NCBI RefSeq assembly: GCF_965641715.1
Contig: NZ_OZ282453.1
DNA from: Escherichia coli
GTDB lineage: Bacteria; Pseudomonadota; Gammaproteobacteria; Enterobacterales; Enterobacteriaceae
DNA: 64,000 nt
Reading direction: 5' to 3' (one strand)
Made by a program: the position numbers and the translations under genes. The notes below the pieces were generated by a model. That model worked only from the letters and a program-made list of their open reading frames with translations, had not been told where the DNA came from and did not search any database. Of the stretch, positions 1,743 to 50,265 are shown piece by piece (position 1 is the first letter of the stretch; each line of letters begins with the position of its first letter).

Positions 1743-2164
1743 TGCGCCGCCTCCTGAAAATTCCCCTGATAGAAAGCCAGTACACGCTGCATAACTTCAC
1801 TATTCCGGCACTCGCGACAGATTATGTTCAGACGCCTGTCATAGCGGCGTATTTCTCCGTCTGGTAACGACCAGATAAGGTCCGGATCAACCACAGATGT
1901 TTTTTTCTTCAGCTTTGCCCTTGAGAGTTTTTTGCGGGCATTTTGCCAGTCCTTACGAGCCTGTTCAGACGGGAATAACCCGTAACCAGAGTTGTATACA
2001 TCGCCACTGGCAACCAGCTCTCTGGCAAGAACGCTCATCAGATATCTTGTTGCCCCAGTTTTAGCTTCCAGTTGTCGTAACGTCTCGCGCCCACTCTGGC
2101 GTACGAGTTCAACAACCTGCCCTTTAATTTTTTCCCGCTCTTCTTGTGTAAAAACTTTTGCCAC
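1739..2164 (-). CDS. Phage early protein (141 aa), immediately downstream of the replication initiator
   Basis: ORF in the position where lambdoid phages carry the second replication gene; basic, contains a CxxC pair (ICRECRNS); function not recognised. Confidence 0.45.
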   Translation of the reverse strand: MAKVFTQEEREKIKGQVVELVRQSGRETLRQLEAKTGATRYLMSVLARELVASGDVYNSGYGLFPSEQARKDWQNARKKLSRAKLKKKTSVVDPDLIWSLPDGEIRRYDRRLNIICRECRNSEVMQRVLAFYQGNFQEAAQ

Positions 2165-2204: not shown

Positions 2205-3281
2205 TTACCCCCTGAAGCCCGGCGGAATTTCGTTATCCGGTTCAGAAATATGATTCACACAACGCTGGTTGTTCGTGCCGCTTACCGGGAGCAACCAGGG
2301 GTTCTCAAAATTCCGGTCCGGTCCAAAAAACGTCGTCGCTCGCTGAACAAATTCCGTTCCCGTTTTCCCGGTAGCCGCCAAGTATCTTGCGTAACGCCTC
2401 ACGCCATCCAGCATGGCCTCTGGTGGCACCCCCTCGCGTAATCTGGCCTTCCAGGCACTGAAAGCGGATTTCTTCGGGTTTGCTCCGGCACGCAACGGGT
2501 ACTCCCGCCAGACCTGTTCGAACGCATCCGGATAATCCACTCGTCCCACAGACAGCCCGGTGTTTTCCGGGACTACCCGATCGGCTTTCCGCTGAATGGC
2601 GGAATCGGCTTCAGGCTGCTGCAGTTGGTGTGATTGCTCCGGCCTTGGGGTCATCACCTGCTGCACAGCGCCCGAATCGGCTTTCAGCGCATACGCTGAA
2701 TCGGCTTCCGGTGTCGTGCCTGCTGGCTGACCAGGATTGACGGTCTGAACATCCCCTGCCTGGTTCGTGGCGTTTTTTACGCCATGGACCATAGTGTTTT
2801 GATCTTCTTGATCTGTATCTTTATCTGTATCTTTATCTGTCGTGACTCGTCGTGACATGTGCGTGACATTTCGTGACGCGCCGTGACAATCGCCATTTTG
2901 TTCCCGCTTTCTTTCCCTCTCTCGCTGCGCCCTCTTGCGCTCTGCAGGAGATTTTGCGGTTTGCGAAATATTGCCGTTGTCCTCTTTAAGCACCTGGCGT
3001 TTTTCCCATCCAGTGATTAAATCACCATCAAGTACCCGCCCCTGCATCGTCTGCAAAATTGAATCAATTACCTCTTCTGTCACGTCGAGCGCACTTGCCA
3101 AATCTTCTGTCGTGACATCAATGTGACCTCGCGTGACATTTCGTGACGCGCTCACCAGGAGGTGGATATACACTGCCATCACTGTTGCAATTGGCTGCCC
3201 TGACACCCTGGCAATTGTTCGCCACTTAGGGTCATTTGGCATGTCATGCCATAATCTGAGCCAGGCGTTAGCCATACTCAC
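2205..3281 (-). CDS. Phage replication initiation protein (lambda O-like)
   Basis: 358-aa ORF directly downstream of the cro/cII-like genes on the same strand; internal clusters of phased CGTGAC repeats resemble ori-lambda iterons inside O; acidic/Q-rich central linker. Confidence 0.6.
   Translation of the reverse strand: MSMANAWLRLWHDMPNDPKWRTIARVSGQPIATVMAVYIHLLVSASRNVTRGHIDVTTEDLASALDVTEEVIDSILQTMQGRVLDGDLITGWEKRQVLKEDNGNISQTAKSPAERKRAQRERERKREQNGDCHGASRNVTHMSRRVTTDKDTDKDTDQEDQNTMVHGVKNATNQAGDVQTVNPGQPAGTTPEADSAYALKADSGAVQQVMTPRPEQSHQLQQPEADSAIQRKADRVVPENTGLSVGRVDYPDAFEQVWREYPLRAGANPKKSAFSAWKARLREGVPPEAMLDGVRRYARYLAATGKTGTEFVQRATTFFGPDRNFENPWLLPVSGTNNQRCVNHISEPDNEIPPGFRG
2811..2840. repeat. 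Tandem 12-bp repeat (atctgtatcttt x2.5) inside the replication gene, encoding (TDKD)n
   Basis: Read directly from the sequence. Confidence 0.8.
2841..2887. repeat. Iteron cluster A: five CGTGAC hexamers at 10-11 bp spacing (candidate phage replication origin)
   Basis: CGTGAC at 2841, 2851, 2862, 2872, 2882; the 20-bp unit gcgtgacatttcgtgacgcg is repeated exactly at 3131-3150. Confidence 0.6.
3079..3150. repeat. Iteron cluster B: CGTGAC/TGTGAC hexamers at ~10-bp phasing plus one inverted copy
   Basis: Hexamers at 3111, 3122, 3132, 3142 and inverted GTCACG at 3079; includes the second copy of the 20-bp unit. Confidence 0.55.
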
Positions 3282-4089: not shown

Positions 4090-4728
4090 ATGAGCAAGCA
4101 AACAATATCTGAACGCATAACCCAACGTATGCATGCGCTAAACCTGAAAGGCAAAGACCTTGTCAATGCCACTGGCGCATCAAAAGGCTCCGTAAGTCAA
4201 TGGATGAACGGTGGAGGAGCGCCGTCCTCGCGTTACATAAGTTCACTGGCAAAAATATTGAAAGTAAACGAAAATTGGCTTCTTAATGGAGGAGAGTTAA
4301 ATACAGGTGATTCGCTTGATCTATCTTTACCGCCGATAAAAACGGTTCCGCTACTATCACTTCAGCAGGCAGCAAGCTGGAGTGATTATATGAAAAATTC
4401 CTCAATAACCTCTTGTGTGCAGCTTGTCGGAGAAATCCCGGCCAATACCTTTGCAGTTGTTCTAGAGAGTGACAGTATGTCAACATCTGGTGGGGGAGTT
4501 TCCATCCCAAATGGTTCAACAGTTTTTGTTGATCCCGATCGAACCGTACAACCAGGAAATATTGTCCTTGCCTTACCCAAAGGGACCACAACACCTGTCA
4601 TTCGTAAACTGGAGATAGAAGGGCCGGATATTCTTTTAGTCCCCACGAATCCTCGCTACCCTTCAATTATGCTGGATGATCTATCTTGCATATTGGGCGT
4701 ATGCTTTAAAATTCAACAAGATATTTAA
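4090..4728 (+). CDS. CI-like prophage repressor (N-terminal HTH, C-terminal S24 LexA-like peptidase domain)
   Basis: 212-aa ORF with an HTH-like N-terminus (GASKGSVSQWMNGGGAPS) and a C-terminal region with the look of a LexA/CI autocleavage domain; divergent from the cro-like gene. Confidence 0.8.
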   Translation: MSKQTISERITQRMHALNLKGKDLVNATGASKGSVSQWMNGGGAPSSRYISSLAKILKVNENWLLNGGELNTGDSLDLSLPPIKTVPLLSLQQAASWSDYMKNSSITSCVQLVGEIPANTFAVVLESDSMSTSGGGVSIPNGSTVFVDPDRTVQPGNIVLALPKGTTTPVIRKLEIEGPDILLVPTNPRYPSIMLDDLSCILGVCFKIQQDI

Positions 4729-6312: not shown

Positions 6313-6803
6313 TCACCCTCCTGAGGGTTGGTAATTAAGGAGTTCTCCACGGGTGAGGTGGAGTGCGTGCGCCGGACACGGGTGAACATCCGGCACTGAC
6401 AGTTTACTGAAAGGATATTTCCCTGAAAAGTCAGACCATAACGCGAAAGCGCACGGCGAGGTAGCTGGTTCATAGATAGCCTGTCGTTAAATTTTCGTCG
6501 ACCGTGCGCTTCCGGTTGTGGCAACCCGCGAAATGGCGCGGCGGTAAGTATGGCGGGGTTATTCCTTCCCCGTTGAGGACACCGGGTTGTCAGGTTGACC
6601 ATACGCTTAAGTGACAACCCCGCTGCAACGCCCTCTGTTATCAATTTTCTGGTGACGTTTGGCGGTATCAGTTTTACTCCGTGACTGCTCTGCCGCCCTT
6701 TTTAAAGTGAATTTTGTGATGCGGTGAATGCGGCTAAGCGCACGCGGAACAGTTAAAACCAAAAACAGTGTTATGGGTGGATTCTCTGTATCCGGCGTTA
6801 ATT

Positions 6804-48037: not shown

Positions 48038-48622
48038 ATGCCTAAACTTATTTTAGCCTCCACCTCGCCCTGGCGTCGCGCTCTTCTGGAAAAACTGCAA
48101 ATCTCTTTTGAATGTGCAGCACCAGAGGTCGACGAAACCCCACGCAGCGACGAATCACCGCGACAGTTGGTGCTTCGACTGGCACAAGAAAAAGCGCAAT
48201 CTCTGGCGTCACGTTATCCGGATCATTTAATTATTGGTTCAGACCAGGTATGTGTTCTTGATGGCGAAATCACCGGTAAACCGTTAATGGAAGAAAATGC
48301 CCGTCTGCAATTACGCAAAGCCAGCGGCAATATCGTCACCTTCTATACTGGACTGGCGTTGTTTAATTCGGCGAATGGGCATCTACAAACAGAAGTGGAG
48401 CCTTTTGACGTCCATTTCCGTCACCTGAGCGAGGCGGAGATTGATAATTACGTGCGTAAAGAGCATCCCCTGCACTGCGCGGGTAGCTTTAAGAGTGAAG
48501 GATTTGGCATTACTCTGTTTGAGCGTTTAGAGGGGCGTGATCCTAACACGCTGGTTGGTTTACCGCTAATCGCGCTGTGTCAGATGTTACGTCGGGAAGG
48601 GAAAAACCCGCTGATGGGATAG
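48038..48622 (+). CDS. yceF: Maf-like nucleoside triphosphate pyrophosphatase YceF
   Basis: Start set at [14 protein letters not shown] (194 aa). Confidence 0.9.
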
Positions 48623-49899: not shown

Positions 49900-50265
49900 A
49901 GGCCGTTTCCGTGTCCATCCTTGTTAAAACAAGAAATTTTACGGAATAACCCATTTTGCCCGACCGATCATCCACGCAGCAATGGCGTAAGACGTATTGA
50001 TCTTTCAGGCAGTTAGCGGGCTGCGGGTTGCAGTCCTTACCGGTAGATGGAAATATTTCTGGAGAGTAATACCCAGTCTGTTTCTTTGATAATTGCGCTG
50101 TTTTTCCGCATGAAAAACGGGCAACCGACACTCTGCGCCTCTTTGAGCTGACGATAACCGTGAGGTTGGCGACGCGACTAGACACGAGGCCATCGGTTCA
50201 CACCCGGAAAGGCGTTACTTTGCCCGCAGCTTAGTCGTCAATGTAAGAATAATGAGTAAGTTACG
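49900..50265 (+). promoter_or_regulatory. rne 5' leader (long structured autoregulatory UTR)
   Basis: ~570-bp ORF-free region upstream of rne; the long rne leader is established knowledge for K-12, not re-derived here. Confidence 0.55.

What the first reader, a model, noticed from the sequence alone, without database searches (positions are those of the whole stretch)
2805..3150. Phased CGTGAC iterons inside the replication-initiator gene: candidate phage origin
Five CGTGAC hexamers occur at 10-11 bp spacing (2841-2887) and four more at 3111-3147, with an inverted copy at 3079. The 20-bp unit gcgtgacatttcgtgacgcg is repeated exactly ~270 bp apart. Helical-turn phasing inside the initiator gene is the architecture of ori-lambda within O. 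At protein level the repeats encode a reiterated SRNVT motif, and a tandem 12-bp repeat abuts cluster A.
Basis: seen in the sequence. Interest (0 to 1): 0.55.

Follow-up and report, generated by a model that had tools for sequence, protein, structure and literature searches.

The report
Replication origin inside prophage initiator gene
The phased CGTGAC repeats are real and are very probably the replication origin of an E. coli prophage, sitting inside the gene of the protein that should bind them; this is a classic phage layout, found here in a very common module whose origin I found no description of.

Summary
There are five CGTGAC at 10-11 bp spacing (2841-2887), three exact copies plus one TGTGAC variant (3111-3147), an inverted copy (3079), an exact 20-mer at 2861 and 3131, and a 12-bp tandem repeat. 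This is the only phased hexamer chain in the 64-kb window.

The gene (2205-3275, minus strand) is not a lambda O homologue. It is a distant relative of the 'phage replisome organizer' family (SPP1 G38P type), with a winged-helix N-terminal domain.

In 54 diverse homologues, 35 carry both arrays and all share one core within a genome. The core differs between lineages: GTCACG, CGAACGC or GCAACG. Four-fold synonymous sites inside the cores are frozen (0.13 versus 1.50 bits). The downstream array is followed by an A/T- and purine-rich tract, the least stable DNA in the gene, with GC3 of 0.20 against 0.61 gene-wide.

Gram-positive family members show GTAACG arrays plus the same tract. SPP1, TP901-1 and Tuc2009 organizers are reported to bind repeats inside their own genes that act as origins.

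Verdict: a genuine origin candidate and a new member of a known kind. The evidence is comparative only. The module occurs in 2077 of 5426 complete E. coli genomes. The second array, inside the DNA-binding-domain coding region, is the unusual part.

The parts
2205..3275 (-). Initiator gene of 356 aa. The likely start is the ATG at 3275, preceded by AGAGGTGA. The mechanical ORF starts at the GTG at 3281. The protein has an N-terminal winged-helix domain, a basic helix, a charged linker, a C-terminal helical domain and a DnaT-like tail.
   Evidence: ORF list. phrog_3729 'replication initiation protein', E 4e-255, full length. NCBI sources name it 'phage replisome organizer'. Homologues start MANAW/MSNSW.
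2841..2887 (-). Cluster A: five head-to-tail iterons. The core reads GTCACG on the gene strand, with spacing 10/10/11/10. It lies in the inter-domain linker, directly upstream (in gene direction) of the AT-rich tract.
   Evidence: An array of 3-6 copies sits at the same place in 45 of 54 homologues.
2797..2840 (.). Candidate DNA-unwinding element. It has 30% GC, is purine-rich on the gene strand (AGATAAAGATACAGATAAAGA), contains the 12-bp tandem repeat (2806-2840) and two GATC sites (2801, 2810), and encodes TDKDTDKDTDQED.
   Evidence: It is the least stable 40-bp window in the gene: dG -43.4 against a mean of -57.4 (sd 3.7), in the top 0.35% of the 64-kb window. GC profile. In 41 genes the tract has GC 0.34 against 0.57 and GC3 0.20 against 0.61, p 4e-8, with purine fraction 0.76.
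3111..3147 (-). Cluster B: four phased cores (three GTCACG plus one GTCACA on the gene strand). It lies inside the coding sequence for the end of helix H1 and the H1-H2 loop of the winged-helix domain (residues 43-55).
   Evidence: Four-fold synonymous sites inside the cores are frozen across 19 diverged genes. The core is the same as in cluster A in all 35 genomes that have both arrays.
3079..3084 (+). Single inverted copy of the core, about 25 nt downstream of cluster B in gene direction. It encodes V65-T66 at the H2-H3 turn.
   Evidence: GTGAC is present here in almost all GTCACG-class genes. In the other classes the inverted copy changes with the class, to CGTTC or GTTGC. The Val codon here is GTG in 17 of 17 genes.
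2861..2880 (-). Exact 20-mer shared with cluster B (two cores plus the AAAT spacer). It encodes ASRNVT.
3131..3150 (-). Second copy of the exact 20-mer, 270 bp away in the same reading frame. It also encodes ASRNVT.
2892..3275 (-). Coding region of the N-terminal domain (aa 1-128). It forms a winged helix-turn-helix (H29-45, H56-63, H67-77, hairpin 78-88) followed by a basic helix (110-127). This is the presumed iteron reader.
   Evidence: AlphaFold2 model with pLDDT 85.6. hhalign against the phiEf11 organizer gives probability 91.7%, E 8e-7. TIGR01714 matches full length but at 18 bits against a cut-off of 49.8.
2208..2279 (-). C-terminal tail GTNNQRCVNHISEPDNEIPPGFRG. It is nearly identical to the C-terminus of the host primosomal protein DnaT and is a presumed link to the host helicase-loading machinery.
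   Evidence: phmmer against PDB chains 6aep, 2ru8 and 9zbt. NCBIfam DnaT model positions 156-179.

Best explanation
The segment 2797-3147 is the replication origin of this lambdoid prophage, written inside the gene of its own initiator.

Shown by computation:
- The gene encodes a two-domain 'replisome organizer'-like protein.
- Two arrays of a 6-bp core (GTCACG on the gene strand) are phased at one helical turn.
- The cores are under selection at the DNA level, independent of the protein code.
- Both arrays, and a single inverted copy, switch core sequence together between phage lineages.
- The downstream array is followed within 2-3 bp by an A/T- and purine-rich tract that is the least stable DNA in the gene.

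Inferred:
- Monomers of the N-terminal winged-helix domain bind head-to-tail to the cores on one face of the helix, five at cluster A and four plus one inverted at cluster B.
- The protein oligomerises. The two arrays, about 260 bp apart, are drawn into one nucleoprotein complex comparable to the lambda O-some or the SPP1 G38P-oriL complex.
- The strain opens the adjacent tract at 2797-2840.
- The C-terminal domain (DnaD-like by PHROG, with a DnaT-like tail) then engages single-stranded DNA or the host DnaB-DnaC/primosome. No phage helicase or loader gene is visible in the 2.2 kb of the window downstream of the gene.
- The gene lies in the early rightward operon (cro, cII-like, initiator), so transcription through the origin may help firing, as in lambda.
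- The initiator's DNA-binding half and its sites overlap physically, so they recombine as one unit. The C-terminal half is exchangeable.
For: Statistics of the arrays.

Family: phrog_3729 'replication initiation protein' at E 4e-255. hhalign to the phiEf11 organizer gives 91.7% probability, E 8e-7. TIGR01714 matches across its full length but sub-threshold. NCBI sources use the name 'phage replisome organizer'.

Conservation across hosts: Pseudomonas and Aeromonas phages at about 70% DNA identity keep both arrays and the tract.

Co-variation: of 54 genes from gamma-, beta- and alpha-proteobacteria and phages, 35 have three or more phased copies in both regions. The script scores 34 of 35 as sharing a core, and the one exception is a scoring artefact (CGAAC against AACGC of the same CGAACGC). 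There are three core classes.

DNA-level selection: four-fold sites inside the cores have 0.13 bit of entropy against 1.50 outside (19 genes, p 3e-4). This was replicated in the CGAACGC class, where the spacer glycine codon varies but motif positions do not (p 0.01). The cores fall in all three reading frames.

Copy number: it changes by in-frame 21-bp insertions of two units (E. albertii, Morganella, O157:H7). Stx-phage lambda-type origins do the same, where two extra iterons add 13 residues to O (PMC7466680).

Unwinding tract.

Same layout in bona fide family members: phiEf11, phi11, SM1 and A500 have GTAACG arrays plus a polypurine tract.

Experimental precedent: gp38 binds the direct repeats of oriL inside gene 38, next to an AT-rich unwinding element, and the reaction has been reconstituted in vitro (PMC6316719). 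TP901-1 ORF13 and Tuc2009 Rep2009 bind repeats inside their own genes that serve as ori (PMC8965321).
Against: There is no experimental evidence for binding, unwinding or autonomous replication in this proteobacterial family.

Membership of PF09681/TIGR01714 fails the curated thresholds.

Among 28 near-identical haplotypes from IMG/VR, substitutions are not depleted in the cores: 5 of 32 variable sites against 3.8 expected, all singletons. The test has low power.

In high-GC hosts the tract is purine-rich rather than strongly AT-rich (for example L131, L136, L137). It also encodes an acidic or charged linker that could itself be selected.

Eight of 54 homologues show no array at all, and 10 lack the upstream one.

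Confidence: 0.8

Rival explanations
1. The repeats are real protein-binding sites, but they serve control of gene expression or replication rather than initiation. Examples are autoregulation or a roadblock within the early operon, or titration or handcuffing sites. The true origin would lie elsewhere.
For: Cluster B sits 130-170 nt into the coding sequence, far from any AT-rich DNA, and carries an inverted copy, which is more typical of an operator. Ten of 54 homologues do without cluster B, so it may be accessory.
Against: Cluster A is fixed within 2-3 bp of the least stable tract of the gene in 41 genes. That is the initiator-site/unwinding-element pairing seen in lambda and SPP1. No other phased array exists in the 64-kb window. 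This rival may well be true for cluster B alone without changing the verdict for cluster A.
Confidence: 0.1
2. The repeats only reflect a repeated peptide (SRNVT / NVT / DKDKD) that is needed in the protein. The DNA has no function of its own.
For: ASRNVT and RG are conserved at the protein level in many homologues. The charged DKDKD linker resembles acidic linkers in other replication proteins.
Against: Four-fold synonymous positions inside the cores are invariant while neighbouring ones are nearly random. The cores occupy all three reading frames and are translated into unrelated peptides, such as SRNVT, HMSRRVTT and TCHGVSL. The peptide changes wholesale when the core changes class. The tract keeps AGATAAAGA while its translation shifts between DKDKD, LDKIREE and RLDKRR, and it uses A/T-ending codons against host bias in Pseudomonas and Bordetella.
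Confidence: 0.02
3. The arrays are a packaging (pac), partition or site-specific recombination site, comparable to the hexamer clusters of P1 pac or the centromere repeats of plasmid prophages.
For: Two clusters of a short hexamer separated by a few hundred bp resemble P1 pac in outline (my own recollection, not tested). A mosaic junction lies right after the tract.
Against: The site is in the early replication gene, not in or near a terminase or partition gene. The linkage to this gene family holds across phages with unrelated morphogenesis modules and hosts. The mosaic junction is expected for a domain boundary.
Confidence: 0.03

Closest known systems
SPP1 oriL / G38P and the TIGR01714 (PF09681) 'phage replisome organizer' family of Gram-positive phages (phi11, phiEf11, A500, SM1)
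   Same: The initiator gene contains its own binding repeats in the low-complexity linker after an N-terminal winged-helix-type domain, and an AT-rich or purine-rich tract follows. In phiEf11, phi11, SM1 and A500 I see GTAACG cores at 10-12 bp spacing, then AGATAAAGA- or AGAAGAAGA-type tracts. This is the same layout as here, with a one-base different core. gp38 binds the oriL repeats inside gene 38, and an AT-rich unwinding element is adjacent (PMC6316719). The N-terminal domains align at 91.7% hhalign probability.
   Different: The window protein scores 18 bits against a cut-off of 49.8 for TIGR01714 and E 0.016-0.25 for PF09681, so it is a distant branch. The proteobacterial branch has a second array plus an inverted copy inside the domain-coding region, which I did not find in the four Gram-positive genes. 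SPP1 has a second origin 13 kb away instead. The C-terminal domain here carries a DnaT-like tail, and no helicase-loader or helicase genes are visible in the 2.2 kb of the window downstream.
ori-lambda within gene O (and the Stx-phage variants with six iterons)
   Same: The origin lies in the middle of the initiator gene, between an N-terminal site-binding half and a C-terminal recruitment half. The order in the direction of transcription is iterons then AT-rich tract. The position in the cro-cII-initiator operon is the same. Extra iterons add residues to the protein (PMC7466680).
   Different: There is no homology to O (no PF04492 match). The cores are 6 bp in head-to-tail arrays at one helical turn, whereas lambda has four O-binding iterons, which I recall as 19-bp and dyad-symmetric (my own knowledge). 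There are two arrays 260 bp apart. No P gene is present in this prophage; a Ren-like gene follows directly.
Lactococcal P335-type phages TP901-1 (ORF13) and Tuc2009 (Rep2009)
   Same: The replication protein binds direct repeats located inside its own gene, and these serve as ori. The cloned ori confers phage resistance by titration (PMC8965321). In TP901-1 I see the repeats (TTTCCAGATGTGG) in the linker at nt 300-345, followed by AT-rich DNA.
   Different: The TP901-1 N-terminal domain is not detectably related to the one here (hhalign probability 0.1%). Its repeats are longer and fewer.
Iteron plasmids (pSC101, R6K, P1 RepA type) and SaPI/PICI origins
   Same: Multiple directly repeated initiator sites lie next to an AT-rich region. 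Short hexamer-type iterons are known from SaPI origins (my own knowledge, not tested here).
   Different: No Rep_3-type or helicase-type initiator is present. There is no DnaA box within the origin; the nearest perfect match is about 650 bp away. The sites lie inside the coding sequence.

Membership tests
Lambda-type origin (ori within gene O) | The initiator is a lambda O homologue (Pfam PF04492 N-terminal domain). | tested here: not met
   The Pfam scan of the full protein and of 50 N-terminal domains gives no PF04492 match. PHROG hits are to other initiator and organizer families.
Lambda-type origin (ori within gene O) | Four (to six) O-binding iterons of about 19 bp, each with internal dyad symmetry (length and symmetry from my own knowledge). 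| tested here: not met
   The units are 6-bp cores with 4-5 nt variable spacers, head-to-tail, with no dyad within a unit.
Lambda-type origin (ori within gene O) | An AT-rich unwinding tract immediately downstream of the iterons, all inside the initiator gene. | tested here: met
   Region 2797-2840 has 30% GC and is the least stable 40-mer of the gene, 0-3 bp from the last iteron.
Lambda-type origin (ori within gene O) | A P-type helicase loader gene follows the initiator gene. | tested here: not met
   The next gene is Ren-like (phrog_142, E 3e-48). The further small ORFs have no loader or helicase match. A variant in O157:H7 with a different C-terminal half does have a gene annotated 'replication protein P'.
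Phage replisome organizer origins (TIGR01714 / PF09681; SPP1 G38P type) | The N-terminal domain matches the family model above the curated threshold. | tested here: not met
   TIGR01714 gives 18.1 bits against a cut-off of 49.8, although the match spans model positions 1-119 of 119. PF09681 gives E 0.016-0.25, and 0 of 50 members reach E 0.001.
Phage replisome organizer origins (TIGR01714 / PF09681; SPP1 G38P type) | Remote homology of the N-terminal domain to bona fide members. | tested here: met
   hhalign of the 50-sequence profile against phiEf11 (95 bits to TIGR01714) gives probability 91.7%, E 8e-7, over 92 columns covering the whole domain. phrog_4880 and phrog_5968 'replisome organizer' match at E 6e-6 and 2e-4.
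Phage replisome organizer origins (TIGR01714 / PF09681; SPP1 G38P type) | Direct DNA repeats inside the organizer gene, in the low-complexity linker, with an adjacent AT-rich tract. | tested here: met
   Cluster A plus the tract. The same arrangement is seen in phiEf11, phi11, SM1 and A500.
Phage replisome organizer origins (TIGR01714 / PF09681; SPP1 G38P type) | The organizer protein binds the repeats, and the segment supports replication or titrates the phage (PER phenotype). | not testable with these tools
   This needs EMSA or footprinting and an origin-plasmid assay. It is reported for SPP1, TP901-1 and Tuc2009 only.
Iteron-plasmid origins (Rep_3 type) | A Rep_3-family initiator, 17-22 bp iterons and DnaA boxes next to the AT-rich region. 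| tested here: not met
   There is no Rep_3 match. The cores are 6 bp. No DnaA-box match lies within 2780-3160, apart from one-mismatch hits at 3000 and 3050 that fit chance.

The most novel reading that the evidence does not exclude
The upstream array may not be a passenger in the coding sequence. On this reading, the peptide it encodes (residues 44-56, the H1-H2 loop and strand of the winged helix) is part of the surface that reads the cores. Binding site and reading head would then be written in the same nucleotides, and a change of core would change site and specificity in one step.

This would explain why both arrays and the inverted copy switch class in lockstep while the recognition helix (AMQGRVL) stays the same between the GTCACG and CGAACGC classes. 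The evidence does not exclude it. Residues that discriminate the two classes are 45, 47 and 48 in that loop, plus an indel at 101-109 and residues 115 and 117 in the basic helix. The latter group is an equally good or better candidate.
Probability: 0.08. Interest if true: 0.75.

Novelty: new member of a known kind. Interest (0 to 1): 0.4.

Why it matters
The module (N-terminal half plus both arrays) is present at 80% identity or more in 2077 of 5426 complete E. coli genomes, sometimes in up to five places per genome, including O157:H7. Reviews of non-lambda replication regions of Stx phages state that nothing is known about how such modules replicate (PMC8951638).

The result gives a precise and testable origin map:
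- the cores;
- the unwinding tract;
- three natural specificity classes for swap experiments;
- natural copy-number variants.

It predicts that co-resident prophages sharing a core class will cross-fire each other's origins on induction. It predicts that the cloned origin will titrate the initiator.

It is also a clean case of overlapping codes, where a protein-binding array dictates the amino-acid sequence of a structured loop in the protein that presumably binds it.

Tried and rejected
- Pfam scans of the whole protein, the N-terminal alignment and the C-terminal half gave nothing significant.
- The first IMG/VR scan returned 80 loci, all 99% identical. They were useless for divergence tests. 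Their microdiversity showed no depletion of substitutions in the cores: 5 of 32 sites against 3.8 expected, all singletons.
- Foldseek of the N-terminal model against the PDB gave only generic winged-helix regulators at E > 0.1.
- The TP901-1 ORF13 N-terminal domain is unrelated, so that phage is an analogue and not a relative.
- The original TP901-1 and r1t papers (PMC92647, PMC136552) are not held.
- A literature search for the core sequence returned nothing relevant. I found no paper describing this origin in proteobacterial phages. Absence in this library is not proof.
- DnaA boxes are absent from the origin.
- A 31-bp imperfect palindrome at 2761-2791, beside the tract, recalls the palindrome next to ori-lambda's AT-rich region. 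The sequence after the tract differs in the O157:H7, Pseudomonas and Aeromonas relatives, so I do not count it as part of the origin.
- The downstream Ren-like gene is not a diverged P.
Full report
**1. The observation**

- CGTGAC starts on the + strand at 2841, 2851, 2862, 2872 and 2882.
- It starts again at 3111, 3132 and 3142, with a TGTGAC variant at 3122. The second cluster therefore has three exact copies plus one variant, not four exact copies.
- One copy in the opposite orientation lies at 3079-3084.
- The 20-mer GCGTGACATTTCGTGACGCG occurs exactly twice, at 2861 and 3131.
- TCTTTATCTGTA is repeated 2.9 times at 2806-2840, touching cluster A.

These features are far beyond chance. Nine of the window's 47 CGTGAC copies lie within 310 bp. 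The five-copy chain is the only chain of three or more copies of any hexamer at 10-11 bp spacing in the 64 kb. In 200 shuffles the longest chain never exceeded three.

**2. The gene and its setting**

The repeats lie in a minus-strand ORF at 2205-3281. Homologues and a Shine-Dalgarno sequence point to the ATG at 3275 as the start, giving 356 aa.

The neighbourhood is a lambdoid early region:
- a cI/LexA-like repressor at 4090-4728 on the + strand;
- then on the minus strand a Cro-like gene, a CII-like gene and this gene;
- then a Ren-like gene.

The protein matches phrog_3729 'replication initiation protein' end to end, at E 4e-255. It has no significant Pfam match, and in particular none to lambda O. 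NCBI sources call it 'phage replisome organizer'.

An AlphaFold2 model of residues 1-128 (pLDDT 85.6) is a winged helix-turn-helix, with H29-45, H56-63, H67-77 and a hairpin at 78-88, followed by a basic helix at 110-127. Foldseek finds only generic winged-helix regulators, so no structure of this family has been solved.

A profile of 50 N-terminal domains aligns with the Enterococcus phage phiEf11 organizer at 91.7% probability, E 8e-7. phiEf11 is a bona fide TIGR01714 member at 95 bits. The window protein itself reaches only 18 bits against a cut-off of 49.8, although the match spans the full model. It is therefore a distant branch of the replisome-organizer family and not a member by the curated test.

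**3. Relatives from other hosts**

Close relatives in E. coli phages (Evi, Tritos and others) are 98-99% identical and uninformative.

At about 70% DNA identity, Pseudomonas and Aeromonas phages keep both arrays and the AT-rich tract.

A scan of one genome per bacterial species gave 51 further loci from gamma-, beta- and alpha-proteobacteria. The following layout recurs, read in gene orientation:
- an upstream array of 3-6 phased cores at about nt 120-170;
- one inverted copy about 25 nt further on;
- a downstream array of 3-6 cores at about nt 350-450;
- immediately after that, a tract of the type AGATAAAGATA or AGAGAAGAG.

The core differs between lineages:
- GTCACG in Escherichia, Serratia, Pseudomonas, Bordetella, Chromobacterium and others;
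- CGAACGC in Janthinobacterium, Variovorax, Methylibium, Sphingobium and several uncultured phages;
- GCAACG in Ralstonia, Cupriavidus and Burkholderia.

Of 54 genes analysed, 35 have three or more phased copies in both regions. In all 35 the two arrays use the same core. The script scores 34 of 35, and the one 'DIFF' is the same CGAACGC read in two registers. The inverted copy changes with the class as well, to GTGAC, CGTTC or GTTGC. Ten genes have only the downstream array and eight have none.

**4. The selection acts on DNA, not on the peptide**

Synonymous sites. In 19 diverged GTCACG-class genes, four-fold degenerate third positions inside the cores have a mean entropy of 0.13 bit, against 1.50 bit elsewhere in the domain (p 3e-4). 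The two Thr codons that supply the final G of the hexamer are ACG in 19/19 and 18/19 genes. The CGAACGC class replicates this result: six consecutive four-fold sites of the motif are invariant, while the spacer glycine codon is free.

Reading frames. The cores fall in all three frames and are translated into unrelated peptides. When the core changes class, the peptide changes wholesale, for example ASRNVTRGH, ASNATERGR and ASTATQGNADATRGN.

Copy number. It changes by in-frame insertions of 21 bp, which is two units. These add seven residues to the H1-H2 loop in E. albertii, Morganella and an O157:H7 prophage. The same phenomenon is described for Stx-phage lambda-type origins (PMC7466680).

One test gave no signal. 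Among 28 near-identical haplotypes, substitutions are not depleted in the cores, with 5 of 32 variable sites against 3.8 expected, all singletons. The power of this test is low.

**5. The adjacent tract**

Region 2797-2840 has 30% GC and is the least stable 40-mer of the gene. Its dG is -43.4 against a mean of -57.4 (sd 3.7), which places it in the top 0.35% of the whole window. It carries two GATC sites.

Across 41 genes, the 36 nt after the last iteron have these properties:
- GC of 0.34 against 0.57 for the gene;
- GC3 of 0.20 against 0.61 (p 4e-8);
- 76% purines on the coding strand.

This holds in Pseudomonas and Bordetella, where such codons run against host usage. The DNA motif also persists while its translation shifts between DKDKD, LDKIREE and RLDKRR. 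That points to selection for easily melted, strand-asymmetric DNA.

In the highest-GC hosts the tract is purine-rich rather than AT-rich. A role for the charged linker it encodes cannot be separated out.

No DnaA box lies within the origin.

**6. Comparison with known systems**

Bona fide TIGR01714 members from Gram-positive hosts (phiEf11, phi11, SM1, A500) show GTAACG cores at 10-12 bp spacing. These are followed by AGATAAAGA or polypurine tracts at the same place in the gene. They have only the downstream array.

For SPP1, gp38 binds direct repeats of oriL inside gene 38, next to an AT-rich unwinding element, and replication has been reconstituted from oriL (PMC6316719).

For TP901-1 and Tuc2009, the organizer binds repeats inside its own gene that act as ori and that titrate the phage when cloned (PMC8965321). 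TP901-1 has the same layout but an unrelated N-terminal domain.

Lambda shares the layout, with the origin in the middle of the initiator gene and the iterons then AT-rich tract in order. It shares neither the protein family nor the iteron type.

This is therefore an origin of a known kind in a branch where I found no description. The extra array inside the domain-coding sequence is the feature without a counterpart.

**7. Mechanism**

The arrays, their DNA-level selection, their co-variation, the tract and the domain structure are shown. The following steps are inferred.
- Winged-helix monomers bind head-to-tail along one face of the helix.
- The protein oligomerises and joins the two arrays, which lie about 260 bp apart.
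- The adjacent tract opens.
- The C-terminal half recruits the host helicase machinery.

No loader or helicase gene is found in the 2.2 kb of the window downstream of the gene. A variant in O157:H7 carries the same N-terminal half and arrays. Its C-terminal half differs (annotated DnaT-like), and it is followed by a gene annotated 'replication protein P'. The exchange point lies right after the tract. The DNA-binding half and its sites thus travel as one module, and the recruitment half is swapped.

What sets the core specificity is open. The recognition helix is the same in the GTCACG and CGAACGC classes. All cores end in ACG. The class-discriminating residues are in the iteron-encoded loop (45, 47, 48) and in the region 101-117.

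**8. Verdict**

The correction is that the relatives are replisome organizers and not lambda O.

My confidence that this is the origin bound by its own gene product is about 0.8. The evidence is comparative only.

The module is very common, occurring in 2077 of 5426 complete E. coli genomes. That makes a bench test worthwhile. As biology it is an expected arrangement, so interest is moderate.

Noticed in passing
window 2208-2279 (minus strand): The last 24 residues of the initiator (GTNNQRCVNHISEPDNEIPPGFRG) are nearly identical to the C-terminus of the host replication-restart protein DnaT (PDB 6aep, 2ru8, 9zbt). This looks like a borrowed or mimicked tail. It may connect the phage initiator to the host PriB/DnaB-DnaC machinery.
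   Followed up: partly
window 2580-2711: A 96-bp internal duplication lies in the linker (ATCGGCTTTC...GAATCGGCTTC, 78% identical). It gives four copies of AATCGGCTT and a repeated peptide PEADSA...KAD. It is absent from the shorter Pseudomonas and Aeromonas proteins.
   Followed up: no
window 2761-2791 (+ strand): A 31-bp imperfect palindrome (13 pairs, terminator-like, then T-rich) lies directly beside the AT-rich tract on the side away from the iterons. It recalls the palindrome next to ori-lambda's AT-rich region. The sequence after the tract differs in the O157:H7, Pseudomonas and Aeromonas relatives, so it is probably incidental.
   Followed up: partly
E. coli complete genomes; L146 (O157:H7 NE92): The N-terminal half plus origin occurs in 2077 of 5426 complete E. 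coli genomes, with up to 5 places per genome, and is joined to at least two different C-terminal halves. The exchange point is right after the AT-rich tract. Many database proteins of this family are 'partial' at contig ends. One possible reason, which I did not test, is that short-read assemblies break inside this shared module.
   Followed up: partly
L092 (E. albertii), L110 (Morganella), L121 (Pseudomonas cerasi), L133 (Lysobacteraceae), L146: The H1-H2 loop of the winged helix tolerates insertions made purely of extra iterons: 7 residues for two units in L092, L110 and L146, and about 20 residues in L121. In L133 the upstream array sits at a different place in the gene (nt 84-104).
   Followed up: partly
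window 6647-6698, 1-101, 47876-48044, 49905-50241: Rfam finds DicF RNA (prophage-borne cell-division inhibitor sRNA) 3.4 kb from the origin and a sok antitoxin RNA cut by the left edge of the window. It also finds SraB and the rne 5' UTR. The window therefore spans a prophage end and ordinary E. coli chromosome.
   Followed up: no
window 2145-2153 (minus strand): One perfect DnaA-box consensus (TTTTACACA) lies at the start of the Ren-like gene, about 650 bp from the AT-rich tract. It may be chance.
   Followed up: no
L003, L142, L143, L144 (Gram-positive phages): The peptide motif NVT that recurs in replisome-organizer linkers (RNVTVTLRN, GNVTCNVTVT, CNVTSSVTVT) is the translation of GTAACG/GTCACG-type iterons. 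'Low-complexity' protein segments in this family are thus footprints of DNA sites.
   Followed up: partly
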